A stretch of DNA of 64,000 bases, taken from positions 2,934 to 66,933 of the IMG/VR virus record IMGVR_UViG_3300042334_000377. One strand, written 5' to 3'. The stretch comes from a virus. Its lineage: Duplodnaviria; Caudoviricetes. Below are positions 1 to 62,287 of the stretch, one piece after another. Positions within the stretch are counted from its first letter, which is position 1, and every line of letters starts with the position of its first letter. The notes beneath the pieces are model-generated. The model saw nothing but the letters and a program-made list of their open reading frames with translations. It ran no database searches and was not told the origin of the DNA. A program made the translations under genes and the position numbers.

Positions 1-1
1 T

Positions 2-28644: not shown

Positions 28645-29249
28645 TGCAAAGTGTATTTAACTTTATTGTAAAGCCCGTCGGTGATAGGTACAATAACAAA
28701 GTTAAAGTAGACGACAAAGAACTAATACTAAATACAAAAATAGAAAGTTTTAAATCAGTGAATAAATTAGCGGAGGTAGTTTCTACACCGCTAGCTTATT
28801 CTACTAATATTAAAAAAGGAGATTTAGTAGTAATACATCACAATGTATTTAGAAGGTTCTACGATATTAGAGGAAATCAAAAAGACAGCCGTTCATATTT
28901 TATGAATGATTTGTATTTTTGTGATCTAGATCAAATCTACTTGTATAAAAATGAAGGTAAATGGGAAACATTTGGAGACAGATGCTTTATTAAACCATTA
29001 AAAAATATAGATTATTTAAAGCTCGATAAAGAGCAAAGGCTTATTGGTATACTAAAATACGGAAATGAGTCCTTAAACAAGCTTAAAATCAATCCTGGTG
29101 ACCTGGTTGGATATACTCCAGATGGTGAATGGGAATTTATAATTGATGGTGAGCGGTTATATTGTATGAAATCTAATGATATTGTAATTAAATATGAATA
29201 TAAAGGAAACGAAGAGGAATACAACCCAGGTTGGGTACATAGTATATAG
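28644..29249 (+). CDS. GroES-like-fold protein (two repeats)
   Basis: FIVKP...IKKGDLVVIHH and CFIKP...INPGDLVGY...IDGERLY. Confidence 0.55.
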   Translation: MQSVFNFIVKPVGDRYNNKVKVDDKELILNTKIESFKSVNKLAEVVSTPLAYSTNIKKGDLVVIHHNVFRRFYDIRGNQKDSRSYFMNDLYFCDLDQIYLYKNEGKWETFGDRCFIKPLKNIDYLKLDKEQRLIGILKYGNESLNKLKINPGDLVGYTPDGEWEFIIDGERLYCMKSNDIVIKYEYKGNEEEYNPGWVHSI

Positions 29250-29793
29250 GCATATAAGACACGATAAAAACGAACCCTTTTATATCGGGATAGGTTCTGA
29301 AAGAAGAAGCAAAGATACAGGCGTTCGTAGAAGTATTATGTGGAATAATATAATTGCTAAATCATCTTATGACATAGAAATTCTTTTTGAAAATTTAACT
29401 TGGGATCAAGCATGTTTAAAAGAAAAAGAATTTATTGCTATTTACGGCCGCAAAGATAAAAAAACGGGTAGTTTATGTAATATGACTGACGGAGGCGACG
29501 GCGCTCCTGGCCAAATTCATTCGGAAGAAACAAAAATAAAAAGAGCTCTAGCAATAACAGGAGAAAAGCATGGAATGTATGGTAAAACACATACTGATAT
29601 ATTGAAAGCAAAATGGTCTAAAGAAAGAAGTAGAGAAAAACATTTTCTTGCAAGGAAAGTGCTTAATACCGAAACAAATAAAATATTTAATTGTGTAAAA
29701 GACGCTTCTGAATTTTATTCTATTAATTATAGTACTTTATGTAGTTGGTTAAATAAATCAAGACCTAACAAAAGTAATTTTATTTATATTTAA
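29194..29793 (+). mobile_element. Free-standing GIY-YIG homing endonuclease with NUMOD3-like region
   Basis: YIVYRH...FYIGIG...R...E...NMTDGGDG, HSEETK, GMYGKTH. Confidence 0.85.
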
Positions 29794-44510: not shown

Positions 44511-46109
44511 ATGTCAGCTACTATAGAAATAAAATATTATAATTCTTTTTGGTTAAAGAAAATGGCTACTATCACTGCTGTTAGTGCTGTCAATCCTAAT
44601 TCTCCAACACCAGCTCCAAATACGGCAGCTTCTGTTGGAGCATCAACTATTGGACAAAGTACTTTAACTATAACGAATGCTGCAGCGGCTAGCGTTGGAA
44701 TAGGACAATCTATAAGTTATACTATATCAAGTGTTATATATACTTACACTATAATATTAAAGACTTTAAGTGGTGCAAATACAATATTAACGCTATCAAG
44801 CCCTATAACCGGAGCAAATGTGCCGGGTGGTACTATATTAACATTCGGTGAGATAGATAATAATGCGTGGTTACCTAGTCGTTATGAGTCTACACCAGAT
44901 AGAGATTGGTATATAGAAGAATCAAGGATTAGAGGTGGCTATGAAAACACATCGGTTGATTTAGGTGTTAAAGCTTACATAGTAGAAGATTCCCCTCAAA
45001 GAGAAAAGTTGCCAAGTACTTTAATATATTCTGGTGTATTTAATTCAAGAACAGGTGTTAATAATACCAATCAGTTCTCTGTAGCTGATGATATTACAAG
45101 AACAGTTGATCCTGCGCAAGGTAGTATACAAAAGCTTTATGCAGAAGATACCAACTTAATAATATTCCAAGAATTAAAAGTAAGTAGAGCTTTAATAGAT
45201 AAAGATGCAATATACTCTGCTGAAGGGCAGCCAATGACAACATCTGGATCTATGGTTATAGGCCAAGTTCAATCTTATGCTGGTAATTATGGAATAGGAT
45301 CTCATCCTGAAAGCTTTGCGGTATATGGATATAGAAAATACTTTGTTGACAATTATCAAAATGTAGTATTACGTTTATCTCAGGATGGTATAACCGAAAT
45401 ATCAGCTTATGGAATGCTTGATTATTTTAGAGACCAACTTTCAAATACTAGTTTGGTTAATGGGTCCATTTATGGAATGTGGGACATGCACAATAAACAA
45501 TACGTATTATCAATACAACCAACATCCGGTGAAAGCAATACTTTATCATTTGATGAAGATTCTAATGGATGGACAAGTTTCTTTAGTTTTATTCCTAACG
45601 GAGGATTAAGTTTAAGAAATAACTTTTATACAGTATATTCTGGTAAAATATGGAAACATTATATTACTTCTGTACCAAAAGCTACTTTTTATGATACCAA
45701 CTATGAATCAAATGTTACTATAGTATTTAATCCATATGTATCGGTTTCTAAATCTTTCCTAACCATAAATTATGAAGGGACACAAAACTGGCGTTTATCT
45801 AGTCTTGAAACGGAAACGGATACTTCGGTTATAATAAAAGAATATTACTTCCCTTCAACATTAGCGGGGTTAGAAGATCAACTGTTTGAAAATAAATTTA
45901 AGAAAAAAGAAAATAAATACTTTGCTAATATTTTAAATATAAGTGCGGTACAAGAAGGTGAAATTCAATGGGGCCAGTCAATATCTGGTATTAAAGGGTT
46001 TTATGCAACTGCAACTTTTGCATGTTTAAATGGAAGCGTGGATTCTATTACAAATCAGAAAGCAGAATTATATGCAGTGTCTGCAGAATACGTAGAATCA
46101 TCATATTAA
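44511..46109 (+). CDS. Tail stabilisation protein, C-terminal part
   Basis: GSIQKL, YGIGSHPESFA, LRLSQDGITEIS, GWTSFFSF. Confidence 0.75.
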   Translation: MSATIEIKYYNSFWLKKMATITAVSAVNPNSPTPAPNTAASVGASTIGQSTLTITNAAAASVGIGQSISYTISSVIYTYTIILKTLSGANTILTLSSPITGANVPGGTILTFGEIDNNAWLPSRYESTPDRDWYIEESRIRGGYENTSVDLGVKAYIVEDSPQREKLPSTLIYSGVFNSRTGVNNTNQFSVADDITRTVDPAQGSIQKLYAEDTNLIIFQELKVSRALIDKDAIYSAEGQPMTTSGSMVIGQVQSYAGNYGIGSHPESFAVYGYRKYFVDNYQNVVLRLSQDGITEISAYGMLDYFRDQLSNTSLVNGSIYGMWDMHNKQYVLSIQPTSGESNTLSFDEDSNGWTSFFSFIPNGGLSLRNNFYTVYSGKIWKHYITSVPKATFYDTNYESNVTIVFNPYVSVSKSFLTINYEGTQNWRLSSLETETDTSVIIKEYYFPSTLAGLEDQLFENKFKKKENKYFANILNISAVQEGEIQWGQSISGIKGFYATATFACLNGSVDSITNQKAELYAVSAEYVESSY

Positions 46110-48824: not shown

Positions 48825-51800
48825 ATGGAAGAATACATCAATGATGCCGGTGATTTATATACAATTGAAGAAATAAATCAAGTAGCAGAAGAAAATAATA
48901 CAACTTTTGAAGATATTATTAAAAAGAATAAATTATCTCCAAATAAGAAAAAAGAAACGGTAACTGAGGAAGTAAAAGTTGAAGAGCCGGGAAAGCCAAA
49001 AACTGTTGTAAAAAAGGATGCAGTTGCAACAGCAAAAAGTACGGCATCCAAATCGGCGAAACCTTCTTCGGTATCACCCGTTAACCCATTTGGTAAACCT
49101 AAAACAATTGATTTACTTGGATTAGAAAAGTTTAAGAAAGCACCCGCTCCTGTAAGTGTTAAAAAGCCAGCGCGAAATTTACAGAATATATCGGATTATC
49201 AAGAAAAGATGAAAAAAGAAGAGGAAGGTAGTTTTTCAAATTACCTTAAAAATTCTTTTGACGCAGGAATTTCCGCTGTAACAGAATCTTTATATAGAGT
49301 GCCTGAATATGCTTATGATATATCTGCAACTATAATGAATCCTATTGGGCGTGCAATTGAGGATGTAACGGGCATTGATGTTGGAGAAGATACCTCTTCT
49401 GAAAAAATTATGAAAGCATGGGGTATTAGGAATGTACCCGCTGATATTCTTGCAAAAAGAGTAAAAGAATCAAATAAAATTATACAGGATTATAATACTA
49501 AAGCAGGAGGCGACCCATTAACAGCAATAGAAAAAGGTAATTATTTAGGAGCAGCTAAGATGGTTGCGGGCGGAACTACACAATCTGTTCCAATGATGGC
49601 GGCTGCAATGTTAAGTGGTGGAAGCCCTCAAGCTCTTGCCGGTATCGCTACTTCAACAGCGGTGTCCAAAGCTCAGCAATTAAAAATTGAGCAGCCAGAG
49701 ATGGACGTTCAAACAAGAACAACAAATGCTGCCGTATCCGGTTTATTAGAAGGTTACCTAGGAAATATGTTTACAGGAGCGTCTGGAGCTGTGATAAAAA
49801 AAATAATCACCGATAAAGGAGTAAAAGCAGGATCTAAAATTGTTTCCAATGGATTAATAAGCTCCCTTGAAAAAGCAATTGAAAAAAACCCTATGATAGG
49901 AGTTTTAGGAGAGGTTGCTGAAGAGAGTAGTGTTGAATTTGGTAATCAATTAAATGATATAAATTCTGGTATTAGAAAAGAATTAGATACTAGATCAATT
50001 ATCAATGCTGGTATCGTTGCAACCGGAATGGCTGGAACAAACACTGTTCCTATATACGCAGCGAAAGGTTATATGAAAGCAAAAGATTATAGCCAAGTAA
50101 AAGCTGTTAATAAGGAAATTAACAATTTAAGTGCTCAATTATCTAATCCATATATAAGCGACACTGATAAACAAATAATTTCATCCCGAGTTACAAGGCT
50201 TGTAGATGAAAATAAAGCTATTGTAGGTGCTAATCTAGAAAAAATAGATGCTTTACCTAATAATATAAAAAGTGAAATAGTTACTATAAATACTGATTTA
50301 GATGATTTAAAAAGTAAGTATTTAGATATTATTGATAATCCTGAATTGCCTGTTGATGTACAACAAGCAATGACTAAAGAACTAGAATTACAAGCAAAAG
50401 ACTTACAAAGTAGAAAATCAAGTATAATTGAAGGTAATTATGTTTACGAAGACTTTAGAAGATTACCACAACCTGAGCAAGACAGAATTAAAGTATTGGC
50501 TAATGAAACATTAGTTGCTAATGCAGAGTTAAATAATGATCCAAAGACTAGCTTTAATGATGATGAAATAAATAGAGAAGCAATCAATGTTTATAATGCT
50601 GAACTACGTGCTGCTGATTTTGTTGCGGATGTAGAAAAAACTAAAGCTGCTACAAAAGCAATTGGGCTGAGTGAGGATATTGATATGCCAACTTTAAACA
50701 CTGCAAATGATGTAATAACTTATTTGTCAGATAATACAGATCTTGACCCAGATACTATAGAAAACGTAGCTGACTCTTATGGTGCATTTATACCATTGGC
50801 AAATGGCAAAGAAGCATTGATTATAAATAAAGAAGCCGCTGACATGGATCAAGTAGTCACCACTGGTCAGCATGAATTCCTTCATAAACTTATATATAAA
50901 GCAGTAAAGGACAACCCAGAATTACAGAAAAAAATAGGGACAGATTTATATAATCACATTGAAAATTATATAGGTACGGAAGAATTCAATAATACTGAAT
51001 TTAAAAATAGATATGATACTTATAAAACTGATTTTGAAAATACTAAATTAGAATTAGATAATAAAGTAGCAAAAGCAAAAAGTTATTTTGAAAGTGGAGC
51101 TATATCTCAAGAAAGATATACCCAAGCTGTATCCGATGCTGAATCAGCTATATTTAAGGCTGAAGGTAAATATTTAGAAGAAACTTTACCATTATTATCT
51201 GAATCATTAACTAAAGGAGATGTTAAATACAATGAAACATTCTTTACTAAGATTGGTGATATATTACGTAGAATATTCCAAAAATATGGATTAAGTAAAG
51301 TAAAATTTAATACAGGTAAAGATGTATTTGATTTCGTAAGAGATTATAATAAGAGTTTTGAGAAAGGACAATTTACAAAAGCATTCAAGGCATTAGCAAA
51401 AGAAGGAGCTTATAAAGGATCTATTGCAAAAGGCAATGCTCCAGTTAGGGCTGCTGTTAAACCTGAAGTAAAGAAAAGTCAGGGATTATCACAAGTTGAA
51501 ACTTTAAAGAATCAACTAAAAGAAATACAAGATAATGAATTTGATTATGATCCTGATGATTTTGATCAACAAGTTGCTAATTTACAAGGTAAAATTAAAA
51601 AGGCAATTGAAAAGGAAAAAACCACTCCTACTGTTGAAACTAAAAAAGAGAAAGAAATCTCTGAAGAAGACGATGTAAAAGAAATTATAAAAAACGAAAG
51701 AGGTTCCGTATCTTCTGATAGAGTTCAACAAATATATAATGAAAAAGGATTAAATGGAGCAGCTGAAATTATAAAACTATTTAAACCAATTACAAATAGA

Positions 51801-54800
51801 ATAGTTGATAAGCGTAGAGATGCCCCAGGATTTGACAAAGAATTATTAACTGATGAAATAGAAACAGGTGTTGGCGGAATTTTAGATTTAATAAAAAAAT
51901 ATAATGCAAAAGCAGGTATTCCATTAGCCGCTTATATTAATAAGTATTTACCCGTTAGAGCAATTGCTACTTCAAGAAGAATATTAGACCAACAGTTTAA
52001 AAAAGATGTAACTGAAGAGAAAGGCTTAATGGCTGAAGAAACAGTTATAGAGACAAAAGAAAAGCCAAAATATAAGAATGTATTAGAATCAAAAGTTTTT
52101 GAGCCAGAGACGCTTAAAACAATCAATGATAAGATATTAACCGTTGTTAGAACTCTAAAATCAAAGATTGATGAGCCAATATCATTAAATAGAACAGTTA
52201 CACCTATAATTGCTGAGATTAGAGATGAAATTGGTAAGCTTGTTGATATTGATGTTAAGACAGCAATGGGCGGCAAAAAAGATAATCAACTTAAAAATTG
52301 GTTATTAAAGAATAAAAGATATATTCTTGAGAACATGACTACGACCTGGTTAATGGGTAAAGATGGTCAAGGAGGAATGCCTATTGCTATTCAAAAACAA
52401 ATTGATGGTAGATTTGTAAATTATCCTGAATGGGTTGGCAAAAAAATAGACCGAGAAAAAACTTCAACTGATAATGCCGGTAGAACTTCTGGAGCGGAAT
52501 TAGTTAGAAGATTGCCTAATGTAGTAAATAACATTTCTGATGCAGACTACCTTGCACAAGTTTTAGCCGCAGATGGGAATCCATTAAGAGGTAGGAAAGA
52601 ATCTTTAGCAAAAGCTATTGCTGAAGAAACATCGTTTGATATTATCAATGACGATTTATCAAAAGAAGGGGTAATATACGATGCCCTAGAAACCAACCAA
52701 AAAAGATTAGGTGTTGAGCAATTAGACAATATTGCTGTTGAGGTAAACAAACAAATAGAAAGAGGTAATGTTAAATTCTCTAAAAAGCTAATTAAAGGAT
52801 TTGAAATATCTAAAGACAAATTAGGTAAAGATATACTTAATGCAAAAACAATTGAAGAAGAAGTTAATGCAATTAACAATTGGATTGCAAGCGACGGTAG
52901 ATCTTTAAGAACATTAGCTTGGGAAGTTGGTAAAGGATTAAAACAATTTACAACTAACAGAGGATTATTTGAAAATATAGTTTTACCTATAATTAAAACC
53001 TACTCTAAGTTTGAAGGTATAATAGGTACTGACTCTTATAGAATAGGTACCGCTCAAAAAGGTGAATCAATTTATTTTGGTGATACTAAAGTTCCTTTAT
53101 GGGCGGACACAACCGCTATAAAAAACAATTGGAAAGGTTTTGTAAATACTATTGATAATGAAGCTATTAAAGCAACAAATAATTTAATTGATATAGTTAA
53201 GTATTTTAAAGATAACGATTATACTAATGAAGATTTTGAATCATACCTTGCCTTATTAAGATGGGATCAAAGAAGTTTAATTAGAAAAGTATCTAAAGCA
53301 GGATTAGCTGTAATGGATATGAAAAAATACCAAAGATCTCACTTAGAACATAATGTTCCAGTACAAAATATAGTAGAGAAAACAATTGAATTTTTTGATG
53401 GCAAAGTAACAGAAAAAGAATTAAGAGATTTCATTGGAGAAGCTCAAGTTAATCTTGTGCCAGATGAATTAAATAAATATTTGCCCGCTTATAAAGAAGG
53501 TGAGAATAGAATGCATGCTCCTGAAGTTGTATTGTACTTACAAGACTTAATGGATAAGGGGCAAACTATATTAAATTTAGAAAGCGAGTATGGATCAAAA
53601 GCAAACTTTAATGCTCTTGTTAAATTAGCAAAATCCGGTGTCAATTCTAAAGAGTCTTTACAAAACATATATAATAATGATGCGGTAACAAAATCTTTAA
53701 TTTCATTTTCTAAACCGGCAAAAGGTATTTCTGTTTTTGATTTTGATGATACTGTTGGTATAACTAAAAGTAATGTGCTATACACAATGCCGGATGGGAC
53801 AAAAGGTAAATTAAATGCTGAAGAGTTTGCAAAAGACGGCGCAAGACTATTGGAAGAAGGCGCTCAATTTGATTTTTCTGAATTTAGTAAGGTTACTAAT
53901 GGTAAGCCAGGCCCTATGGTTGAAAAAATGAAGAAAATGATTGGTAAGTTTGGCCCAGATAATTTCTTTATACTTACTGCAAGACCTGCGAATTCAGCTG
54001 GTCCTATTCATGGATTTTTATCTTCAATAGGTATAGACATACCATTAGAAAATATAACTGGATTAGGTAATAGTACAGCTCAAGCAAAAGCTGATTGGAT
54101 GACAGCGAAAGCAACGGAAGGTTATAACGACTTTTATTTTGCTGATGATGCAATTCAAAATGTAACAGCGGTTAAAGATGCATTAGATGTTCTTGACGTT
54201 AAATCAAAAATACAACAAGCAAGAATTAAATTTAGTAAAACTATATCTCCAGAATTCAATAAGATAATTGAAGAGAATACTGGCATGGAAGACTATAAAG
54301 TGTTCTCAGATATTGTTGCTAGAAGAAGAGGGGTAGATAAAAATAAATTTGATATTTATGTTCCGCCATCTGCTGCTGACTTTGAATTATTATTGTATAA
54401 ATTTATAGGTAAAGGTAAACGCGGGGAGGAGCAAAAGCAATTCTTTAATGATGCTTTATTAAAACCATATGCAAATGGTAATGACTTAATGGATGCGGCT
54501 AGGCAATCAATTAAGAATGACTATAAAGCATTGACAGATCAATTCCCCAATATTAGGAAGAAAATAGAAAAGCTAACTCCAGATGGAGACTTTACATATG
54601 ATCAAGCAATACGTGTTGCAATGTGGACAGAAGAAGGTGTTGAGATACCTGGTATATCACAAAGAGACCAAAAGAAATTAACTGAGCTTGTAAATAATGA
54701 TCCAGAATTAAATACTTTTAAAGATGGATTAATTGTTACAGGTAGACAAGGTAAAGGTTGGGTTGCTCCTACTGAATTTTGGGATGCAAGTACGATTATA

Positions 54801-56456
54801 TCTGACTTACATAACTTAACAGAAGGAGAAGGTAGAAAGAAATTCCTTGCTGAATTTATTGACAATACCCAAGAAATGTTTGGTAAATGGGAGAACGGTA
54901 AACTTGTTGGTCCTAATATGAACAAAGTAGAAGCGGTATACGGAACAAATGTAAGAGAGGCAATCGAAGATGTATTATACAGAATGACAACTGGTAAAAA
55001 CAGAAGTCAAGGTAGCGACAAAGAAACATCTGCATGGAGTAATTGGATAAATGGTTCTACAGGAACTATTATGTTCTTGAATACAAGATCTGCTGCATTA
55101 CAATTAATTGGAGCAGTCAATTTCTTAAACTTAAGAGATAACAATCCAATTGCAGCTGGTAAAGCATTTGCTAATCAAAAACAATATTGGGAAGATTTTG
55201 CTCTTATATGGAATTCTGATAAGATGAAAGAAAGACGTGGCGGTTTAAAAGAAGATGTTGCGGCTGCTGAAATTGCTAATGCTGCTGCCGGTAGTAAAAA
55301 TAAAGTCAATGCTGTTATATCATACTTATTAAAAATAGGTTACACACCCACACAATTAGCGGATAGTTTTGCTATCGCTTCAGGTGGATCACCGTTTTAC
55401 AGGAATAGAATTAAAAGCTATTTAAAAGAAGGTTTAACTCAAGAAGAGGCAGAGGACGCAGCATGGAGTGACTTTACTAAAGTATCTGATGAAACACAAC
55501 AGTCAGGTGACCCAAGAGATATATCAAAACAACAAGCAAGTCCTGCAGGGAGATTATTATTAACATTCCAAAACACGGCAATGCAACAATCTCGTATTGT
55601 TAAGAAGTCTTTCTTAGATCTTAAAAACGGTAGGGGTGATGCTAAAACACATATTGCAAAAATAACTTATTACTTAGCAATACAGAATATAATGTTCGCG
55701 GTATTACAACAAGGATTGTTTGCAGTATTATTTAGCGGAGACGATAAAGAAGATGAAGAGGCTAAAAAGAAGAAAGCGAAAGATACAGAAAAGAAATTGT
55801 ATGATATTGCTGATGGAGTATTAGATACAATATTAAGAGGTACAGGATTTTTGGGGGGTATTACAGCTACATTGAAAAATGTTTACATGAAATACTTAGA
55901 GGAGGAGCCTAAAGACTTTAAAGCAGACTATGCTAAAGTTGTATTAGAAGGCGCTAATATATCACCTCCAATCGGATCTAAACTTAGAAAACTATATTCA
56001 GGATTCCAGCAAACTAAATTCGAAAGAGATCTTATAAAAGAAAGAGGATGGGGAGTAACACAAGATGGTAGAGTTCACTTAGGACCTTTATATGGAGTAA
56101 CTGGAAAACTTGTTGAAGCGACTACAAACTTACCAGCGGATCGTTTAGTTAATAAGATTGAAAATGTATCACAAGCATTTAATTCAAAAAATACAGCTTT
56201 ACAAAGAGTATTAGTAGGAATTGGATTTAATCCTTATAGCGTTGGAATTGAAGAATCAGAAGCTGATCAGGAAATAAGAACTAAAGCCAAAGAAGTAAGA
56301 GCTGAAGAAGGCAAAATTAAATCTAGAGAAACAAGGTTACGTACTAAAGATTCAATTAGAGCTTTACCTATTGAAGAAAGAATAAAATTAAAACGCGAAG
56401 CTGCTTTAAAAAGAAGAGAAGAAAAGCTAAAAAAGCGTAAAAGAAAAATGGGTTGA
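48825..56456 (+). CDS. Giant ejection polyprotein: zincin, sigma-region-2-like and HAD domains
   Basis: HEFLH at aa 683; sigma-like aa ~980-1053; HAD DFDDT/ILTAR/FADD at aa ~1630-1800; last gene of the virion block. Confidence 0.75.
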   Translation: MEEYINDAGDLYTIEEINQVAEENNTTFEDIIKKNKLSPNKKKETVTEEVKVEEPGKPKTVVKKDAVATAKSTASKSAKPSSVSPVNPFGKPKTIDLLGLEKFKKAPAPVSVKKPARNLQNISDYQEKMKKEEEGSFSNYLKNSFDAGISAVTESLYRVPEYAYDISATIMNPIGRAIEDVTGIDVGEDTSSEKIMKAWGIRNVPADILAKRVKESNKIIQDYNTKAGGDPLTAIEKGNYLGAAKMVAGGTTQSVPMMAAAMLSGGSPQALAGIATSTAVSKAQQLKIEQPEMDVQTRTTNAAVSGLLEGYLGNMFTGASGAVIKKIITDKGVKAGSKIVSNGLISSLEKAIEKNPMIGVLGEVAEESSVEFGNQLNDINSGIRKELDTRSIINAGIVATGMAGTNTVPIYAAKGYMKAKDYSQVKAVNKEINNLSAQLSNPYISDTDKQIISSRVTRLVDENKAIVGANLEKIDALPNNIKSEIVTINTDLDDLKSKYLDIIDNPELPVDVQQAMTKELELQAKDLQSRKSSIIEGNYVYEDFRRLPQPEQDRIKVLANETLVANAELNNDPKTSFNDDEINREAINVYNAELRAADFVADVEKTKAATKAIGLSEDIDMPTLNTANDVITYLSDNTDLDPDTIENVADSYGAFIPLANGKEALIINKEAADMDQVVTTGQHEFLHKLIYKAVKDNPELQKKIGTDLYNHIENYIGTEEFNNTEFKNRYDTYKTDFENTKLELDNKVAKAKSYFESGAISQERYTQAVSDAESAIFKAEGKYLEETLPLLSESLTKGDVKYNETFFTKIGDILRRIFQKYGLSKVKFNTGKDVFDFVRDYNKSFEKGQFTKAFKALAKEGAYKGSIAKGNAPVRAAVKPEVKKSQGLSQVETLKNQLKEIQDNEFDYDPDDFDQQVANLQGKIKKAIEKEKTTPTVETKKEKEISEEDDVKEIIKNERGSVSSDRVQQIYNEKGLNGAAEIIKLFKPITNRIVDKRRDAPGFDKELLTDEIETGVGGILDLIKKYNAKAGIPLAAYINKYLPVRAIATSRRILDQQFKKDVTEEKGLMAEETVIETKEKPKYKNVLESKVFEPETLKTINDKILTVVRTLKSKIDEPISLNRTVTPIIAEIRDEIGKLVDIDVKTAMGGKKDNQLKNWLLKNKRYILENMTTTWLMGKDGQGGMPIAIQKQIDGRFVNYPEWVGKKIDREKTSTDNAGRTSGAELVRRLPNVVNNISDADYLAQVLAADGNPLRGRKESLAKAIAEETSFDIINDDLSKEGVIYDALETNQKRLGVEQLDNIAVEVNKQIERGNVKFSKKLIKGFEISKDKLGKDILNAKTIEEEVNAINNWIASDGRSLRTLAWEVGKGLKQFTTNRGLFENIVLPIIKTYSKFEGIIGTDSYRIGTAQKGESIYFGDTKVPLWADTTAIKNNWKGFVNTIDNEAIKATNNLIDIVKYFKDNDYTNEDFESYLALLRWDQRSLIRKVSKAGLAVMDMKKYQRSHLEHNVPVQNIVEKTIEFFDGKVTEKELRDFIGEAQVNLVPDELNKYLPAYKEGENRMHAPEVVLYLQDLMDKGQTILNLESEYGSKANFNALVKLAKSGVNSKESLQNIYNNDAVTKSLISFSKPAKGISVFDFDDTVGITKSNVLYTMPDGTKGKLNAEEFAKDGARLLEEGAQFDFSEFSKVTNGKPGPMVEKMKKMIGKFGPDNFFILTARPANSAGPIHGFLSSIGIDIPLENITGLGNSTAQAKADWMTAKATEGYNDFYFADDAIQNVTAVKDALDVLDVKSKIQQARIKFSKTISPEFNKIIEENTGMEDYKVFSDIVARRRGVDKNKFDIYVPPSAADFELLLYKFIGKGKRGEEQKQFFNDALLKPYANGNDLMDAARQSIKNDYKALTDQFPNIRKKIEKLTPDGDFTYDQAIRVAMWTEEGVEIPGISQRDQKKLTELVNNDPELNTFKDGLIVTGRQGKGWVAPTEFWDASTIISDLHNLTEGEGRKKFLAEFIDNTQEMFGKWENGKLVGPNMNKVEAVYGTNVREAIEDVLYRMTTGKNRSQGSDKETSAWSNWINGSTGTIMFLNTRSAALQLIGAVNFLNLRDNNPIAAGKAFANQKQYWEDFALIWNSDKMKERRGGLKEDVAAAEIANAAAGSKNKVNAVISYLLKIGYTPTQLADSFAIASGGSPFYRNRIKSYLKEGLTQEEAEDAAWSDFTKVSDETQQSGDPRDISKQQASPAGRLLLTFQNTAMQQSRIVKKSFLDLKNGRGDAKTHIAKITYYLAIQNIMFAVLQQGLFAVLFSGDDKEDEEAKKKKAKDTEKKLYDIADGVLDTILRGTGFLGGITATLKNVYMKYLEEEPKDFKADYAKVVLEGANISPPIGSKLRKLYSGFQQTKFERDLIKERGWGVTQDGRVHLGPLYGVTGKLVEATTNLPADRLVNKIENVSQAFNSKNTALQRVLVGIGFNPYSVGIEESEADQEIRTKAKEVRAEEGKIKSRETRLRTKDSIRALPIEERIKLKREAALKRREEKLKKRKRKMG

Positions 56457-56762: not shown

Positions 56763-58631
56763 TTAAGTTATTTCGCAACCAGCTGGACCACAGGCAACTG
56801 ATTCGCTAAAGTTAGTATTATCTTGAATTTCAATTACTTTTGATAGATCAACATCTTTTAATGTTGCCATCATTTGATCGTACATTTCCTTTGTACAATC
56901 TTCAAATGGTGTTTGTTTATATGTACCTCCGTGATACGGTAAAACAGATAATCCATTATAGTAATCTTTGTTTGCCCACATCCATTCACCAATAATCTTC
57001 CACTCATCATCTCTTACCGAAACAGTACACGAAACGTTGTGTGTATTATTACCTTTGTTGTGACCTTGCTTAACCCAATCCTTAGATACAAGCTTAACTC
57101 TTTCTAATAGATCTAATGTAGACTCATGTCTTGTTATGGCGCCATTTGGAGCCTTCTGAGGCACAGATATGACTGACTGTAATGTTGGATTAAAATATTC
57201 ATCTTCAATCAATTCTGGATGATTTATTGCAAGATAAGAATAGATTGCTTCATTCTTGCCTAAGCGCATGCGACGTATGTAATAATCATTATGCCAAGCA
57301 TGAATACCACTGCTAGTACCCAACACCAAAGAAGTAGTTCCAGCGGGCTTGACGGCCGTCGTTCTAGCTGCCCTGTTGATGTTAAGGGCGGCAGAAATGA
57401 CATTATTTGTATCTTTAACCACTTGAGCAGCTTCTTCATAGTTTAAATTTAAATTAGATTCTGATGCAATACCTGTCATTGATACACCAAGTAATGCGTC
57501 TTTTTCTGTATTCTTTCTCCATATATCTCGCAGATAATGGAAGTCTGAATACGATGCCTGCAATGTTCCTAAGAATGATGCTGCTGATGCTCTTGCATTA
57601 AAGTCCTCTTGACTTTCAATATTAGCCATATTAATTTCAGTTAAATTACAAAACTGATAAGGACGTAAAGCAATCTCACAACAAGGATTAGTACCCCAAT
57701 CTTTATCATTAGTAAGGTAAATGCCTGGCTCACCCGATCCAGAAGCCTCAATACGTTCCCAAACTTTGTCAAATGTTTTCTTGTCAATTTTATGTCTTAA
57801 AAGTACTACTGAATTATTTGCTCTACCTCTTTGAGGATTTTCTTCCCACCAGTTACCAGCTTTACAGTTTAACATTGCATTGCTATCAAGATCAAACAAT
57901 GAAATCATTGCAGCCCGTCTGATACCACCTGCTAAAACAGCGTCGGCAATATGGCATTGAATATCATGGCATTCAATATCTGTTAGCTTAGATCTATCCT
58001 CTTTGCTTCTTAATATAGCTTCCACTTTAACTAATGCAATTCTTAATGGTTCTGGTCCTGGTGCTTTACCGCCGGCTGTTACAAGCAATGCCCCCTTCTG
58101 TCTTATATCAGATAGATCAAACTCGATATGCGAAGTTAATCCTCCTGTGTATGACTTGAAGAGGGTTTTGATTGCGTCTGCCCATCCGATAATACTGTCT
58201 TGAACAACATACCTTTTCTTACGATCATAATTAGGTTTTCTAATCTCAGGTAATTTGTCAATCTGATGTTGCTGGACCGAATAGCCAACTCCAGTACCTC
58301 CAAGCAATAAAAACATAGTCTCAGAAAAACTATGGATACTATCAACAGGTAAGAAAGCGCAGTTATAAATGCGAGCGTTATTAAGCTCAATAGCTTTACC
58401 ACCAAACTGTAAGCTTCGCATCGAAGGTAAAACTTTTTTAGTGAATACAAAATTTTCATATATTGATTCAATTGGTTCTTTCATTGTAGGAAACTTAGCA
58501 ACGTGCATCTCCATATTCCTTGTTACTAATTCATGCCAGGTTTCACGCCTTTCCTTGTTTGGCAAATATTTAGCATATTTAGTGTACACTGTTATGTCAC
58601 TTAAAATCTGCTTATCTAATGTTAAACTCAT
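56763..58631 (-). CDS. nrdJ: Class II (B12-dependent, monomeric type) ribonucleotide reductase
   Basis: PSMRSL, YNCAF, GTNPCCEI, CNLTE, KPAGTTS, C-terminal CGPAGCEI; no nrdB in window. Confidence 0.9.
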   Translation of the reverse strand: MSLTLDKQILSDITVYTKYAKYLPNKERRETWHELVTRNMEMHVAKFPTMKEPIESIYENFVFTKKVLPSMRSLQFGGKAIELNNARIYNCAFLPVDSIHSFSETMFLLLGGTGVGYSVQQHQIDKLPEIRKPNYDRKKRYVVQDSIIGWADAIKTLFKSYTGGLTSHIEFDLSDIRQKGALLVTAGGKAPGPEPLRIALVKVEAILRSKEDRSKLTDIECHDIQCHIADAVLAGGIRRAAMISLFDLDSNAMLNCKAGNWWEENPQRGRANNSVVLLRHKIDKKTFDKVWERIEASGSGEPGIYLTNDKDWGTNPCCEIALRPYQFCNLTEINMANIESQEDFNARASAASFLGTLQASYSDFHYLRDIWRKNTEKDALLGVSMTGIASESNLNLNYEEAAQVVKDTNNVISAALNINRAARTTAVKPAGTTSLVLGTSSGIHAWHNDYYIRRMRLGKNEAIYSYLAINHPELIEDEYFNPTLQSVISVPQKAPNGAITRHESTLDLLERVKLVSKDWVKQGHNKGNNTHNVSCTVSVRDDEWKIIGEWMWANKDYYNGLSVLPYHGGTYKQTPFEDCTKEMYDQMMATLKDVDLSKVIEIQDNTNFSESVACGPAGCEIT

Positions 58632-59330: not shown

Positions 59331-59780
59331 TTAGTCGTTGTCTTGTGGATGCAACAAATCAAAATGGCTTCTAGTTGTATTTGAAACATACCTTGCTTGA
59401 GAATTGTAATCAGGTTCATCTATTGTAAAAGTAAAATGATCACCACGACCAAGCTTCTGCCCCGAAGATTTTTTCTGCTTCAGTTTCTTCTCTTTTTTTT
59501 TAGGTATGAATACAAACTCATCTATAATATCGATTTCATTTAATTCATTAATCAAAGCTTTTTCTTCGCGTAGATCAGATATTTCTTCTTTTAAACGTTG
59601 AAGATACAATGTAGCATCCATTAATTCTTCTTGTAAATGATTAAGCCAAACAAATACGTCTGATCTATCATCTCGCATAGTCTTTCCGTATTTAGCAAAG
59701 CCTACATCAGATCTGTCTACAAATTTATTTACTACTGATTGTACAACTGGATCTCTAAATTCAATTTCTTGTTTTCTCAT
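59331..59780 (-). CDS. All-alpha NTP pyrophosphohydrolase-like protein
   Basis: GFAKYG...WLNHLQEELMDATLY. Confidence 0.6.
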   Translation of the reverse strand: MRKQEIEFRDPVVQSVVNKFVDRSDVGFAKYGKTMRDDRSDVFVWLNHLQEELMDATLYLQRLKEEISDLREEKALINELNEIDIIDEFVFIPKKKEKKLKQKKSSGQKLGRGDHFTFTIDEPDYNSQARYVSNTTRSHFDLLHPQDND

Positions 59781-59781
59781 A

Positions 59782-60633
59782 TTATAGTGTATTTGTTACG
59801 TCGTATTTTGATTTTGTAATTAGAGCTGGTCTTTCTTTAACAAAAGTTCCGTTGATCATTGATCCTTGTCTTGATTTAATTACATCATAAGCTGATGTAA
59901 CGCAGTCTTCAATTTTTAATCCTTCTAATGCGGCAAGATTAGTTAATACAACTACAGCATCTCCAATTGCATCAATAAATTCTTCGCGATTATTTTTTAA
60001 TATAGCTCTGGCAAGTTCACCAGTTTCTTCTTGAAGCTTTATAAACTGTGTTTTAGAATCTCCATTTCTATATATGCCCCGTTCATCAGCCCATTGTCTA
60101 ATAAGATCATACACATTAGGATTTTCAACTTTTACTTCTTCAGGTTGATTATAATGTTCCATAGCCATTGATTTTTTACCTAATGATTGAGCAAACTCAT
60201 CTAATGCTTTGTTATAAACATAGGATCTTGCTGGATTGAACATTGAGGTGCTAGCATTATTAATTATCCAATCAGATAATTCTTGGGTTAAAACATATTT
60301 GCCAAACCCAGTTTCTATTTTAATACCTAAATTATCCAATAAATTGCCTTTAAGCTTATTAAGTGGGCATGGGAATGTGGTTGTTTGTTCTGTAACATTT
60401 AATTTCATTTTATTTGATTTTTTTTGAGTTAAATTCTTATATGATTGCCGATCTAGTTTGTAGCCGTAGATAGATTGAAGTTCTAGTTCCCGTTCAGATA
60501 CATAATCTATATCGTCACTGGTTTCTAAAACTTCATATTCATCTTCTTTGTAACCTTGCTGGCTTGTAACCCTATTATTAAGATTACGTGTAACTCCGAT
60601 CTTTTTACCAAAAATGTGATAGATATAATACAT
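59782..60633 (-). CDS. Fusion: GIY-YIG-like N-terminus and MazG-like pyrophosphatase C-terminus
   Basis: YYIYH...KIGVT...R...E; KLQEETGELA...DAIGD..VVL. Confidence 0.8.
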   Translation of the reverse strand: MYYIYHIFGKKIGVTRNLNNRVTSQQGYKEDEYEVLETSDDIDYVSERELELQSIYGYKLDRQSYKNLTQKKSNKMKLNVTEQTTTFPCPLNKLKGNLLDNLGIKIETGFGKYVLTQELSDWIINNASTSMFNPARSYVYNKALDEFAQSLGKKSMAMEHYNQPEEVKVENPNVYDLIRQWADERGIYRNGDSKTQFIKLQEETGELARAILKNNREEFIDAIGDAVVVLTNLAALEGLKIEDCVTSAYDVIKSRQGSMINGTFVKERPALITKSKYDVTNTL

Positions 60634-60641
60634 AATTTAGA

Positions 60642-61409
60642 TTAAATGGCCACTTTTGCTGAAATTACTGGACCGTGTTTATAATTTATTAAGGTTAATG
60701 CTCCGTTTTTGTAAAAGTACTGTGGCGACTGAAAAGTTTCCTGATCAAGATATTTGTGTATAGCATCGTGTTGATTATTGTAAACGTGGGCATCTACGAT
60801 TTGTATGTCAATGAAGTTAGCTTGTAAAGCGACTTTGTCAGCAACATACAAAAGTATTTTTGAAAACAAAGCTACATCATAAGGTATGCCTAAGAACATA
60901 TCGCCAGATCTTTGTACAACAAACATATTAAGATCTAATCCATCAACGAAAAATTGAAAATACAAATAACAAGGAGGCAATGCCATTTGATTTGTTTGAG
61001 CCGGATTCCATAAACTTATAATGTGTCTACGGCTGTCTGGATCCTCAATTAAGTCATCAATAAGCATTTGCATCTGATCTATATTTTGATCGTTAAAATT
61101 GCGCATTTGATGCCCATATACAGGACCAAGATCGCCATTCTCATCTGCCCAAGCATCCCATATCTTTACATTAGCATCTCGGAATCTTTGTACATTGGTT
61201 TCGCCATTCATAAACCATTCGAATTCTGTATCGAAAGTTTTTTGAAACATTTTTCTACCAGTTAATAAAGGGAAACCTTCTTTAAGATCTATTCTTAAGT
61301 TAGCATTAAAAATAGAATTGCAGCCCACCCCAGTACGGTCATTACGCTTAACCCCGCTAGCAAGACACTTATATAGTAATTCTTTGTATTGTGATTCATA
61401 CTTTGTCAT
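60642..61409 (-). CDS. Thymidylate synthase-family enzyme, possibly dCMP (hydroxy)methylase
   Basis: DRTG, LGPVYG, DSRR, LPPC, QRSGDMFLGIPYD (D in place of the canonical N), DAHVY. Confidence 0.85.
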   Translation of the reverse strand: MTKYESQYKELLYKCLASGVKRNDRTGVGCNSIFNANLRIDLKEGFPLLTGRKMFQKTFDTEFEWFMNGETNVQRFRDANVKIWDAWADENGDLGPVYGHQMRNFNDQNIDQMQMLIDDLIEDPDSRRHIISLWNPAQTNQMALPPCYLYFQFFVDGLDLNMFVVQRSGDMFLGIPYDVALFSKILLYVADKVALQANFIDIQIVDAHVYNNQHDAIHKYLDQETFQSPQYFYKNGALTLINYKHGPVISAKVAI

Positions 61410-61410
61410 A

Positions 61411-61749
61411 TTAAAATAATTGTTTATCGTTTGATTGTTGTTTTACTTTTACTACTTTCTTTTTATCTTCCAGCATTGGATTGATCTTTATATCTGTATT
61501 GTATTTGTTATAATAATAAAGATAGAATAAATACATTTGCTTCCATATATCAACTTTCTTATAAGTCTTAGGGCTTTTGTTTTCTTTACCGTTCATTACA
61601 ATACAGACATACCATTCTAAAGTATTAAATGCTTTTGGTGATATATTGATTCCGTTATTAATACACCAACGTCTAGCAGCTTCTTCAGCTTCACTTGCTG
61701 CATAAAAACCCATATCAATTTTACTTTTATTATTAAATCCACTGCCCAT
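61411..61749 (-). CDS. Hypothetical protein
   Basis: ORF track. Confidence 0.65.
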   Translation of the reverse strand: MGSGFNNKSKIDMGFYAASEAEEAARRWCINNGINISPKAFNTLEWYVCIVMNGKENKSPKTYKKVDIWKQMYLFYLYYYNKYNTDIKINPMLEDKKKVVKVKQQSNDKQLF

Positions 61750-61966: not shown

Positions 61967-62287
61967 TTAAGGTCTATATCCGTTATAGCCCATTAAATGT
62001 AATTGAGTTTCCATTAAATGCGCCCTTATTGGGTTTTCAAAACACATTAATACTTCCCAGTCGTCAATAATTTTTCCTAAATGTTTATGCTTAGACATAC
62101 GAGAATGAATATCGTTACTCATGCCAACATAGTGTTCTTCTGGTATATAATATACTGCATATCCTGGATATTCATTTGCTCTTTTTTCTCTATAAGCTTT
62201 TGAATAATCTTTATGTCTTTGTTTTTGTTTTTCAGTATATTCGTTTTTATATTGATTTCTTTTCATATATATATCTATTTTTCCCAA
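61967..62287 (-). CDS. Small GIY-YIG-like endonuclease
   Basis: AVYY...HYVGMS...RM..H...E...GYNG. Confidence 0.7.
   Translation of the reverse strand: MGKIDIYMKRNQYKNEYTEKQKQRHKDYSKAYREKRANEYPGYAVYYIPEEHYVGMSNDIHSRMSKHKHLGKIIDDWEVLMCFENPIRAHLMETQLHLMGYNGYRP

What the first reader, a model, noticed from the sequence alone, without database searches (positions are those of the whole stretch)
60642..61409. Thymidylate synthase homologue carries the dCMP-specificity Asp: possible cytosine-modified genome
Seen: QRSGDMFLGIPYD (Asp codon at 60876-60878) where ThyA has QRSxDxxLGxPFN, and PPCY instead of PPCH. Established: E. coli N177D and L. casei N229D switch TS toward dCMP methylation, and T4 dCMP hydroxymethylase has Asp at this site. 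Inference: makes 5-methyl- or 5-hydroxymethyl-dCMP, with NrdJ and the neighbouring pyrophosphatases completing an anti-restriction pathway that would be mis-annotated as thyA.
Basis: partly seen in the sequence, partly recalled or inferred. Interest (0 to 1): 0.75.

Follow-up and report, generated by a model that had tools for sequence, protein, structure and literature searches.

The report
Phage ThyA-like predicted dCMP methylase
This phage gene looks like ordinary thymidylate synthase but carries the published active-site signature of enzymes that methylate dCMP, so the phage probably makes 5-methylcytosine nucleotides for its DNA, a trick already known from other phages.

Summary
ORF 60642-61409 (-) is a 255-aa thymidylate-synthase-family protein. 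Asp178 (codon 60876-60878) stands where E. coli ThyA has Asn177, and Tyr148 where it has His147. Every other catalytic residue I checked, Leu143, Asp169 and the C-terminal VAI are kept.

Published work (MetaGPA, eLife 2021; a 2024 bioRxiv preprint; NAR 2026) ties position 177 to cytosine modification, 143 to methyl versus hydroxymethyl, and 169 to 5-hydroxylation; the role of 147 is only proposed. By those rules the enzyme should turn dCMP into 5-methyl-dCMP, not 5-hydroxymethyl-dCMP.

The signature is fixed in 120 of 120 nearest homologues and in 80 of 80 related viral loci. A MazG-type pyrophosphatase lies on the same strand just downstream in all 80. A conserved protein of unknown function accompanies them in 69.

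The 66.9-kb phage record shows no DNA polymerase, dCMP deaminase, DHFR, ThyX or cytosine DNA methyltransferase, and I saw no kinase, so later steps would need host enzymes. This differs from phage Xp12.

No activity and no modified base in virion DNA has been shown. The kind is known, and this scan has already noted it on other DNA: a new member, of moderate interest.

The parts
60642..61409 (-). ThyA-family enzyme (255 aa), predicted dCMP C5-methyltransferase (5-methyl-dCMP synthase)
   Evidence: PF00303 E 2.9e-74; best solved relatives are ThyA, 6auj E 9.9e-59; key-residue table.
60876..60878 (-). Asp178 codon (GAT), aligned with E. coli ThyA Asn177, the pyrimidine-specificity position
   Evidence: Asp in 120 of 120 homologues and 80 of 80 loci.
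60966..60971 (-). Cys147-Tyr148 codons: catalytic Cys (E. coli C146) followed by Tyr in place of His147
   Evidence: Residue numbers, alignment; codon coordinates are my own arithmetic. LPPCY in 120 of 120. Among 106 representatives, Tyr147 occurs only with Asp177 (11 of 11).
59782..60633 (-). Two-domain protein (283 aa): N-terminal possibly GIY-YIG-like domain plus C-terminal MazG-type nucleoside triphosphate pyrophosphohydrolase; start lies 8 nt after the TS stop
   Evidence: PF03819 27.8 bits against cut-off 22, PF01503. Model pLDDT 85.8. Present on the same strand downstream of the TS gene in 80 of 80 loci, within 40 nt in 75 of 78 complete ORFs. N-terminal domain present in 74 of 80.
59869..60135 (-). 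MazG fold proper (residues about 167-255 of the fusion)
   Evidence: VIA-align Z 10.2 to 1yvw and 1vmg; the 14 best chains are nearly all named MazG, PRA-PH or related pyrophosphatases (rank 14 is an unnamed predicted protein), including cyanophage S-2L MazG (Z 8.4) and the mouse RS21-C6 protein, whose other entries are titled dCTPase (Z 8.6). Coordinates are my own arithmetic from the residue range.
59331..59780 (-). Conserved 149-aa protein of unknown function; the conserved core is the first ~75 residues, a predicted two-helix hairpin with invariant W45, H48, E51, E52, D55
   Evidence: Found in 69 of 80 loci. Of 68 recovered ORFs, 54 lie right after MazG, 11 right before the TS gene, 3 elsewhere (sorted by hand from the printed coordinates). 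Alignment A1; model; no family or fold match.
61411..61749 (-). 112-aa protein of unknown function directly upstream of the TS gene (1 nt gap), same strand
   Evidence: relatives in 51 of 80 loci; no Pfam or PHROG match.
56763..58631 (-). Ribonucleotide reductase, probably class II (NrdJ-like): general dNTP supply, loosely linked
   Evidence: phrog_367 E 1.2e-128. PF02867 E 4e-9; PF21995 at 23.5 bits is below its cut-off of 27. Present in 39 of 80 loci.

Best explanation
The gene encodes a thymidylate-synthase-fold enzyme re-tuned from dUMP to dCMP. It should use methylene-tetrahydrofolate to make 5-methyl-dCMP (deoxycytidylate C5-methyltransferase), as the phage Xp12 enzyme does.

The MazG-type pyrophosphatase 8 nt downstream most likely hydrolyses dCTP to dCMP. 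That would lower the canonical dCTP pool and feed the methylase. Host kinases would then raise 5-methyl-dCMP to the triphosphate, and the host replicase would put it into phage DNA, because the phage shows neither a kinase nor a DNA polymerase. The expected result is phage DNA in which much or all cytosine is 5-methylcytosine.

Shown here: fold and family, the residue signature, its fixation across the clade, and the gene linkage. Inferred: substrate, product, MazG specificity, the host-dependent steps, and the presence of 5mC in virions.
For: (1) Family: PF00303 E 2.9e-74; the nearest solved structures are ThyA.

(2) Signature against E. coli ThyA: R21, E58, W80, W83, Y94, R126, R127, L143, C146, Q165, R166, S167, D169, G173, H207, Y209 and the C-terminal Ile are kept. 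N177 is Asp and H147 is Tyr.

(3) Published rules. N177D switches ThyA to dCMP and gives 5mdCMP, and positions 177 and 147 are the two residues most associated with cytosine-modified virome contigs (eLife 2021, PMC8670742, section 11 read). A hydrophobic L143 goes with methyl, L143D/E with hydroxymethyl, and D169N with 5-hydroxy-dCMP (NAR 2026, PMC13326640, passages). Five of seven metagenomic TS homologues predicted from the residue at 177, and the Xp12 enzyme, made 5mdC in vivo (bioRxiv 10.1101/2024.12.05.627091, passages). My alignment reproduces these marks in reference enzymes: T4 gp42 D143/D177; SP8 dUMP hydroxymethylase D143/N177; RB69 gp48 E143/N169/D177; Xp12 and PaMx74 D177/P147.

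(4) Purifying selection: L143, Y147, D169, D177 and a C-terminal [VI]A[VI] in 80 of 80 loci at 58-97% identity; D177, Y147 and the C-terminus in 120 of 120 homologues.

(5) Among 106 representative homologues, Tyr147 (11 of 11) and Pro147 (6 of 6) occur only with Asp177.

(6) Linkage: MazG downstream on the same strand in 80 of 80 loci. This holds in unrelated small phages with other terminases. PRA-PH-type pyrophosphatases are enriched in cytosine-modified contigs (50 against 179, p 1.3e-49; MetaGPA supplementary table 2).

(7) This is the only PF00303 match in the phage record.
Against: No enzyme assay and no base analysis exists for this clade. I could not see whether a Tyr147-type enzyme was among those tested: bioRxiv supplements are closed and figures are not held.

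Two of the seven tested homologues made no 5mdC.

The clade is separate from the validated Xp12/PaMx74 clade on the tree. It lacks Xp12's companions: dCMP-family deaminase, DHFR and DNA polymerase I.

No kinase for 5-methyl-dCMP was seen. The published E. coli assay co-expressed T4 dNMP kinase, so host kinases may not suffice.

Pfam's MazG model itself is not enriched in modified contigs (5 against 226), and MazG specificity cannot be read from sequence. The structural neighbours include the mouse dCTPase, which was solved with 5-methyl-dCMP bound.

Restriction-site statistics do not decide. GATC and CCGG are not avoided, but CATG is (0.58 of expectation), although NlaIII is blocked on 5mC DNA.

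Xp12 has Gln, not Leu, at the column aligned with 143, so the 143 rule is not absolute.
Confidence: 0.6

Rival explanations
1. Thymidylate bypass. The enzyme does make 5-methyl-dCMP, but the product (or its triphosphate) is deaminated by a host dCMP/dCTP-family deaminase to dTMP/dTTP. The cassette would then mainly turn the dCTP pool into thymidine nucleotides for an AT-rich (33% G+C) genome, and virion DNA would hold little or no 5mC.
For: The 2024 preprint proposes that deamination of 5mdCTP supplies dTTP in 5mC phages. The phage has no other ThyA or ThyX, so it needs a thymidylate source. No phage kinase for 5mdCMP was seen. The genome is 33% G+C.
Against: No deaminase is encoded, whereas phages using this route carry one next to the TS gene. 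In those phages the bypass accompanies full 5mC substitution rather than replacing it. A plain ThyA would make dTMP more directly. The host ThyA can supply dTMP.
Confidence: 0.12
2. It acts on dCMP but gives another C5 product: 5-hydroxymethyl-dCMP (as T4 gp42), 5-hydroxy-dCMP (as RB69 gp48), or a precursor for further hypermodification.
For: Asp177 is shared with T4 gp42 and RB69 gp48. Tyr147 is untested in anything I could read. The adjacent conserved 149-aa and 112-aa proteins have no known function and could be tailoring factors.
Against: Leu143 and Asp169 are kept, whereas hydroxymethylases have Asp143 and 5-hydroxylases have Asn169 with Glu143. The ThyA C-terminus and Tyr94 are kept. On the tree the clade sits inside the ThyA-like radiation, far from the gp42, gp48 and SP8 long branches. 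No glycosyltransferase, carbamoyltransferase or other transferase was found by Pfam or PHROGs in the genome.
Confidence: 0.1
3. It is still an ordinary thymidylate synthase (dUMP to dTMP) in which Asp at 177 and Tyr at 147 are tolerated.
For: Overall it is close to ThyA (about 40-45% identity to bacterial and phage ThyA). It passes TIGR03284's cut-off, 212.5 against 108.35 bits. It is the phage's only TS homologue.
Against: Asn177 is the dUMP-specifying residue, and Asn-to-Asp switches preference to dCMP. The Asp-plus-Tyr pair is fixed in all 200 relatives examined. Tyr147 never occurs with Asn177 in 106 representatives. The best NCBIfam equivalog models fall below their cut-offs, e.g. NF002497 at 255.6 against 327 bits.
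Confidence: 0.1

Closest known systems
Xanthomonas phage Xp12 (MT664984) and Pseudomonas phage PaMx74 TS homologues: dCMP methyltransferase / 5-methyl-dCMP synthase of phages said to replace C fully with 5mC
   Same: ThyA fold; Asp at position 177; His147 replaced; Asp169, Tyr94 and the catalytic Cys and Arg residues kept. Annotated 'thymidylate synthase'. Xp12 enzyme shown to give 5mdC in vivo (passages).
   Different: Separate clade on the tree. Pro, not Tyr, at 147. Xp12 and PaMx74 lack the ThyA C-terminal residue in my alignment, and Xp12 has Gln at 143. Xp12's gene sits between a HAD hydrolase and a dCMP deaminase plus DHFR, near DNA polymerase I. Here the partners are a MazG fusion and an unknown 149-aa protein, and the genome shows no deaminase, DHFR or polymerase. 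No relative of the MazG fusion was found in Xp12 or PaMx74 (that search had no positive control).
Metagenomic Asp177 thymidylate-synthase homologues of cytosine-modified viromes (MetaGPA: eLife 2021, PMC8670742; bioRxiv 10.1101/2024.12.05.627091)
   Same: The same two diagnostic positions (177 and 147), and co-occurrence with PRA-PH/MazG-type pyrophosphohydrolases. Five of seven such enzymes made 5mdC.
   Different: The published sets were picked for a neighbouring dCMP-family deaminase, which this phage lacks. I could not see their sequences or which residue they carry at 147: figures are not held, bioRxiv supplements are closed, and the window's motifs were absent from the eLife supplements.
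[quoted passage not shown]
   Same: One Asn-to-Asp change in an otherwise complete ThyA active site, which is what this natural protein looks like.
   Different: Those are laboratory mutants with His147 kept. This is a natural, conserved lineage with the extra His147Tyr change.
Phage T4 gp42 dCMP hydroxymethylase, with the gp56 dCTPase as pathway analogue (the gp56 role is recalled, not tested here)
   Same: TS fold and Asp at 177. The logic of pairing a dCTP-removing pyrophosphatase with a dCMP-modifying enzyme.
   Different: gp42 has Asp143, Thr147 and no ThyA-type C-terminus, and sits on a very long branch. Its product is hydroxymethyl. T4 also encodes its own kinase and polymerase.
Cyanophage S-2L MazG (PDB 7ody)
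   Same: The MazG domain here matches it structurally (Z 8.4, 93 residues aligned). From recall, not from a call: in S-2L the MazG clears a canonical dNTP for a base-replacement pathway.
   Different: Different base (purine pathway). About 16% identity in the alignment. Specificity here is unknown.

Membership tests
Thymidylate synthase superfamily (Pfam PF00303, ThyA fold) | Significant full-length match to the family profile | tested here: met
   E 2.9e-74, 250 bits, profile positions 2-265 of 266; phrog_160 E 9.5e-84.
Thymidylate synthase superfamily (Pfam PF00303, ThyA fold) | Catalytic Cys (E. coli C146) and the phosphate-binding arginines R21, R126, R127, R166 | tested here: met
   All present in the alignment with E. 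coli ThyA.
Canonical thymidylate synthase ThyA (dUMP to dTMP) | Asn at position 177, which specifies uracil | tested here: not met
   Asp178 aligns with N177.
Canonical thymidylate synthase ThyA (dUMP to dTMP) | Score above the curated equivalog cut-offs of NCBIfam | tested here: inconclusive
   NF002497 255.6 against 327 and NF002496 223.2 against 325 bits (below). TIGR03284 212.5 against 108.35 bits (above).
dCMP C5-methyltransferase / 5-methyl-dCMP synthase (Xp12 type) | Asp at position 177 | tested here: met
   conserved in 200 of 200 relatives.
dCMP C5-methyltransferase / 5-methyl-dCMP synthase (Xp12 type) | Hydrophobic residue at 143 and Asp at 169 (published marks of a methyl product) | tested here: met
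   Leu and Asp; 80 of 80 loci.
dCMP C5-methyltransferase / 5-methyl-dCMP synthase (Xp12 type) | Falls in one clade with the validated Xp12 and PaMx74 enzymes | tested here: not met
   The query lies in an Asp177-only group of 18 rows (SH-aLRT 85). Xp12 and PaMx74 lie on the other side of a branch with support 99 (quick tree).
dCMP C5-methyltransferase / 5-methyl-dCMP synthase (Xp12 type) | Companion dCMP-family deaminase and DHFR next to the gene | tested here: not met
   Present in Xp12. No PF00383 or PF00186 match in six frames of this record.
dCMP C5-methyltransferase / 5-methyl-dCMP synthase (Xp12 type) | Makes 5-methyl-dCMP from dCMP; 5mC in virion DNA | not testable with these tools
   Needs an enzyme assay or LC-MS.
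dCMP hydroxymethylase (T4 gp42 type) | Acidic residue at position 143 | tested here: not met
   Leu here; Asp in T4 gp42 and in the SP8 enzyme.
5-hydroxy-dCMP synthase (RB69 gp48 type) | Asn at position 169 | tested here: not met
   Asp here; Asn in RB69 gp48; rule.
MazG / all-alpha NTP pyrophosphohydrolase (neighbour 59782-60633) | Profile match above cut-off and the MazG helical fold | tested here: met
   PF03819 27.8 against 22 bits; 28 of 28 aligned relatives match; VIA Z 10.2.
MazG / all-alpha NTP pyrophosphohydrolase (neighbour 59782-60633) | dCTP as preferred substrate | not testable with these tools
   Inferred from gene linkage only.
GIY-YIG nuclease superfamily (N-terminal domain of the MazG fusion) | Profile match and the catalytic Tyr / Arg / Glu set | tested here: inconclusive
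   MUG113 in 12 of 28 and T5orf172 in 10 of 28 relatives, best E 0.0012-0.0023, all below cut-offs. Invariant Y5, R21, Y28, E49. No PDB sequence match. The fold lists were filled by the MazG domain.

The most novel reading that the evidence does not exclude
The TS(Asp177/Tyr147) gene, the fusion of a GIY-YIG-like domain with MazG, and the conserved 149-aa protein could form a compact, mobile 'cytosine replacement cassette'. It would work without any phage polymerase, kinase, deaminase or DHFR, and would be traded among phages that replicate with host enzymes. The N-terminal domain of the fusion might be a nuclease that attacks cytosine-containing DNA. That would link host-DNA breakdown, dCTP removal and dCMP methylation in one operon.
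Probability: 0.12. Interest if true: 0.6.

Novelty: new member of a known kind. Interest (0 to 1): 0.35.

Why it matters
If the prediction holds, a large group of uncultured phages carries 5-methylcytosine DNA made before replication. Their genomes are about 60-67 kb, and their closest cultured relatives by terminase infect Flavobacterium and Cellulophaga. The gene responsible is labelled 'thymidylate synthase' in public annotation.

That would affect three things: how these phages meet restriction and modification-dependent defences, how their DNA behaves in methylation-sensitive library preparation, and how 'thyA' is counted as an auxiliary metabolic gene in viromes.

The minimal context (no phage polymerase, kinase, deaminase or DHFR detected) would show that two or three genes are enough to impose the modification through host enzymes.

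The principle is already published and this scan has met it repeatedly, so the gain is in range and annotation, not in concept.

Tried and rejected
1. Second pyrophosphatase. The 149-aa neighbour resembles a MazG helix by eye (EELMD), but hhalign against the MazG alignment gave probability 0.3. A PDB profile search gave one hit at E 0.37. Foldseek found nothing at E <= 0.001. The ESM Atlas gave only unnamed viral clusters. Pfam over 24 members showed no consistent family. There was no link to the DUF6378 protein that takes its place in locus L069. I leave it as unknown.

2. Walker-A kinase idea. GFAKYGKT in the 149-aa protein fits G-x4-GK[ST], but the Lys is Thr or Val in relatives. Rejected.

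3. Restriction-site avoidance as a proxy for modification. This genome keeps GATC (204 observed, 194 expected) and CCGG (64, 74). In 50,000 of the 60,850 bases of the nearest named relative, which has no TS gene (MW202828), both counts are 0 (156 and 22 expected). But the hosts are unknown. CATG (0.58) and CTAG (0.65) are low here although NlaIII and BfaI are blocked on Xp12 DNA. GATATC is absent (0 against 16.4 expected). EcoRV cuts 5hmC T4gt DNA, and Xp12 has no EcoRV site. Equivocal.

4. Bisulfite-library runs holding this DNA: none was listed.

5. N-terminal domain of the MazG fusion: a PDB profile search found nothing meaningful, and both fold lists were filled by the MazG domain.

6. Search for the MazG fusion in Xp12, T4, SP8, RB69 and PaMx74: nothing at E <= 0.01, without a positive control.

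7. The window's own motifs in the MetaGPA supplements: not found.

8. Literature searches for this clade or a MazG-TS-5mC cassette found the general papers only.
Full report
OBSERVATION. The window is phage DNA with 33% G+C. ORF 60642..61409 on the minus strand encodes 255 aa. It contains QRSGDMFLGIPYD, with Asp178 encoded by GAT at 60876-60878, and LPPCY at residues 144-148. It is a full-length thymidylate-synthase-family protein: PF00303 E 2.9e-74 and phrog_160 E 9.5e-84. Its best solved relatives are ThyA: 6auj at E 9.9e-59 and E. coli 2tsc at 2.6e-57. In those alignments lgipyd lies opposite lglpfn, and ppcy opposite apch.

ANATOMY OF THE ENZYME. I aligned the protein with E. coli ThyA, fetched from NC_000913. 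I added six reference enzymes taken from named phage records: RB69 Td, Xp12 and PaMx74 TS homologues, SP8 dUMP hydroxymethylase, T4 gp42 and RB69 gp48. At 21 key positions the window protein keeps R21, E58, W80, W83, Y94, R126, R127, L143, C146, Q165, R166, S167, D169, G173, H207, Y209 and the C-terminal Ile. It differs at N177 (Asp), H147 (Tyr), E82 (Ala) and C168 (Gly). The two hydroxymethylases have Asp at 143 and no ThyA-type C-terminus. The 5-hydroxy-dCMP synthase RB69 gp48 has Glu143 and Asn169. Xp12 and PaMx74 have Asp177 with Pro147.

WHAT THE LITERATURE SAYS ABOUT THESE POSITIONS. Section 11 of the MetaGPA paper (eLife 2021, PMC8670742; read in full) makes two relevant statements. First, Asn177-to-Asp switches ThyA from dUMP to dCMP and gives 5mdCMP. 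Second, among 433 virome TS sequences, positions 177 and 147 are the two residues that best separate cytosine-modified from unmodified contigs. Its supplementary table 2 ranks Thymidylat_synt first (109 against 303, p 2.9e-116). It lists PRA-PH as enriched (50 against 179) but Pfam MazG as not (5 against 226).

Passages of a 2024 preprint (10.1101/2024.12.05.627091) report an in vivo test. Five of seven metagenomic TS homologues predicted from position 177, plus the Xp12 enzyme, produced 5mdC in E. coli when co-expressed with T4 dNMP kinase. The preprint proposes that a neighbouring deaminase makes dTTP from 5mdCTP.

Passages of NAR 2026 (PMC13326640) add two rules: a bulky hydrophobic residue at 143 correlates with methyl and Asp/Glu with hydroxymethyl, and Asn169 marks 5-hydroxy-dCMP synthases.

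By these rules the window enzyme should take dCMP and give 5-methyl-dCMP. I did not see figures or the preprint's supplements. I therefore do not know which residue the published 'modified' enzymes carry at 147, or whether a Tyr147 enzyme was tested.

IS THE SIGNATURE SELECTED? The 120 best hits of the word-indexed search (75-98% identity, many on 60-67-kb contigs) all have the Asp, all have LPPCY, and all end in a ThyA-like V-A-[IV] C-terminus. A scan of IMG/VR gave 80 loci at 58-97% identity. All 80 have Leu143, Tyr147, Asp169, Asp177 and a C-terminal [VI]A[VI].

In the exhaustive search of 50%-identity representatives I aligned the 106 of the best 150 that were 230-345 aa long; the other 44 I dropped as fragments or fusions. 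Of those 106, 73 have Asn177 and 30 have Asp177. Tyr147 (11 of 11) and Pro147 (6 of 6) occur only with Asp177. His147 occurs with Asn in 72 and with Asp in 12.

I built a quick maximum-likelihood tree of 121 rows: the 106 representatives, 7 close relatives, the query and 7 references. It was rooted on the three long-branched hydroxymethylase and hydroxylase rows. The query falls in an Asp177-only group of 18 rows (SH-aLRT 85). The group lies inside the ThyA-like radiation, apart from Xp12 and PaMx74. Strongly supported branches force at least four changes of the Asp state. The tree is a short search with an LG+G4 model. The deep order is weak, and the outgroup rows are long branches.

GENOMIC CONTEXT. 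The record is a 66,933-base IMG/VR virus contig whose ends overlap by about 318 bases with at least one mismatch. It is therefore a complete, circularly closing assembly of about 66.6 kb. Several features mark it as a phage: a crAss-type muzzle domain, terminase phrog_6681, portal phrog_6547 and a 2543-aa ORF without matches. It also encodes GroEL/GroES, a primase-helicase, ERF, a PDDEXK nuclease, endonuclease VII and a sigma-like factor. Its terminase is 65% identical to that of an uncultured podovirus (MW202828). It is about 45% identical to that of Flavobacterium elemo phages, and Cellulophaga phages also match. Neither MW202828 nor elemoA has a PF00303 match.

The TS gene lies in a tight minus-strand operon. 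The order is primase-helicase, three small ORFs, TS, then (8 nt on) a 283-aa MazG fusion, then (1 nt on) a 149-aa ORF, a DUF1064 nuclease and a ribonucleotide reductase.

Six-frame searches of the record found no second TS and no ThyX. They also found no dCMP-family deaminase, DHFR, family A or B DNA polymerase, or C5 DNA methyltransferase. Pfam and PHROG scans of the ORFs showed no kinase. Several large ORFs have no match at all, so absence is 'not detected', not proven.

THE PARTNERS. A MazG homologue lies downstream on the same strand in 80 of 80 loci. It starts within 40 nt of the TS stop in 75 of the 78 loci where the ORF is complete; the other three have inserts of 333-611 nt. In 74 of 80 it has the same two-domain form, and six have the MazG domain alone.

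An AlphaFold model built on 28 sequences (pLDDT 85.8) has a C-terminal domain (residues 167-255) that matches MazG/PRA-PH structures. The best are 1yvw and 1vmg at Z 10.2. Cyanophage S-2L MazG scores 8.4, and mouse RS21-C6, solved in other entries as dCTPase, scores 8.6.

The N-terminal domain (residues 1-153, pLDDT above 90 in most blocks) has a strand-strand-helix-strand-helix start. It gives weak, recurrent MUG113 and T5orf172 matches (12 and 10 of 28 members). Its invariant residues include Y5, K11, G13, T15, R21, Y28 and E49. That suggests a GIY-YIG-like domain but does not establish one.

The 149-aa protein is present in 69 of 80 loci. Of the 68 ORFs recovered, 54 lie right after MazG, 11 right before the TS gene and 3 elsewhere; I sorted these by hand from the coordinates printed, because the script's own classes were too strict. 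Its conserved core is a two-helix hairpin, and every attempt to name it failed.

In the most distant loci the TS-MazG pair sits in quite different small phages. These have Terminase_3, ERF, RusA, NinG and DnaB-like helicases, and again show no deaminase, DHFR, kinase or polymerase within 6 kb. This rests on 5 loci and 61 ORFs, with the TS and MazG ORFs themselves left out of the scan. Xp12 differs: there the gene is flanked by a HAD hydrolase, a dCMP deaminase and DHFR, near DNA polymerase I.

MECHANISM PROPOSED. MazG hydrolyses dCTP to dCMP (inferred). The TS homologue methylates dCMP with methylene-THF and releases DHF (inferred from the residues). Host kinases and the host replicase complete the route (inferred from the absences). 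The outcome is 5mC in phage DNA (inferred).

The weak links are three. There is no phage kinase, although the published E. coli assay added one. The MazG specificity is unknown. There are no base-composition data. I put the whole chain at 0.6. Substrate dCMP alone is more likely than that, and full replacement of C in virions less likely.

INDIRECT TEST. Palindrome statistics show no avoidance of GATC, CCGG, GGCC or GCGC. The TS-less relative MW202828 has none of 156 expected GATC and none of 22 expected CCGG in the 50 kb examined. That fits protection by modification, but the hosts are unknown. CATG and CTAG are depleted here although their enzymes are blocked on 5mC DNA. GATATC is absent (0 against 16.4 expected). 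The enzyme data come from Flodman et al. 2020, PMC7653180, supplementary tables S1 and S3. I count this test as equivocal.

COMPARISON AND NOVELTY. Functionally the gene should work like the Xp12 dCMP methyltransferase. By descent it is a separate Asp177/Tyr147 lineage of ThyA, and it has a different, smaller set of partners. The principle, the diagnostic residues and the metagenomic spread are published. Earlier notes of this scan describe the same kind on other genomes, two of them with look-alike sequence; none concerns this genome. I class it as a new member of a known kind.

Three features are particular here: the absence of phage polymerase, kinase, deaminase and DHFR; the conserved fusion of MazG with an N-terminal domain; and the third conserved gene of unknown function.

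VERDICT. Interest is 0.35.

Noticed in passing
window 59782-60633 (-), residues 1-153: The MazG pyrophosphatase carries a conserved N-terminal domain, present in 74 of 80 related loci. It has weak GIY-YIG-superfamily (MUG113/T5orf172) matches and invariant Y5, R21, Y28, E49. Its role is unknown; a nuclease is possible.
   Followed up: partly
whole record (G000, 66,933 bases; window = 2934-66933): The record's ends overlap by about 318 bases (not perfectly identical), so the genome closes at about 66.6 kb. No family A or B DNA polymerase was detected, although a primase-helicase, ERF, a PDDEXK nuclease and endonuclease VII are encoded.
   Followed up: partly
window 48825-56456 (+): A 2543-aa ORF after the tail and muzzle genes has no Pfam or PHROG match. 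A 1355-aa ORF (40411-44478) and a 532-aa ORF with a crAss muzzle C-terminal domain (44511-46109) precede it.
   Followed up: no
window 18967-20771 (+) and 28644-29249 (+): The phage encodes a GroEL-type chaperonin (515 aa) followed by a Cpn10 co-chaperonin (86 aa), and a further 201-aa protein matching a PHROG named co-chaperonin GroES.
   Followed up: no
whole genome: GATATC is entirely absent (0 found, 16.4 expected from a Markov model). CATG (0.58) and CTAG (0.65) are depleted, while GATC and CCGG are at expectation. The TS-less relative MW202828 has no GATC (156 expected) and no CCGG (22 expected) in 50 kb.
   Followed up: partly
window 1-538 (-), continuing to genome 2704-3471: A 255-aa protein with sigma-70 region 2 and region 4 matches, so the phage may bring its own sigma-like factor. 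The window holds only part of the gene.
   Followed up: no
window 3594-4067 (-) and 2453-3130 (-): A pyrimidine-dimer DNA glycosylase-like protein (PF03013; phrog_624) and a calcineurin-like metallophosphoesterase sit in the early small-gene region.
   Followed up: no
window 29194-29793 (+) and 61967-62287 (-): A NUMOD3 homing-endonuclease-like ORF lies just before the terminase gene. A small ORF with a weak GIY-YIG match lies beside the primase-helicase and is present in only 11 of 80 related loci, which suggests a mobile insert.
   Followed up: no
loci L067, L069, L084, L085, L064 (IMG/VR): The same TS(Asp177/Tyr147)-MazG pair occurs in unrelated small phages with Terminase_3, ERF, RusA, NinG and DnaB-like genes. 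This suggests that the pair moves between phage lineages as a unit.
   Followed up: partly
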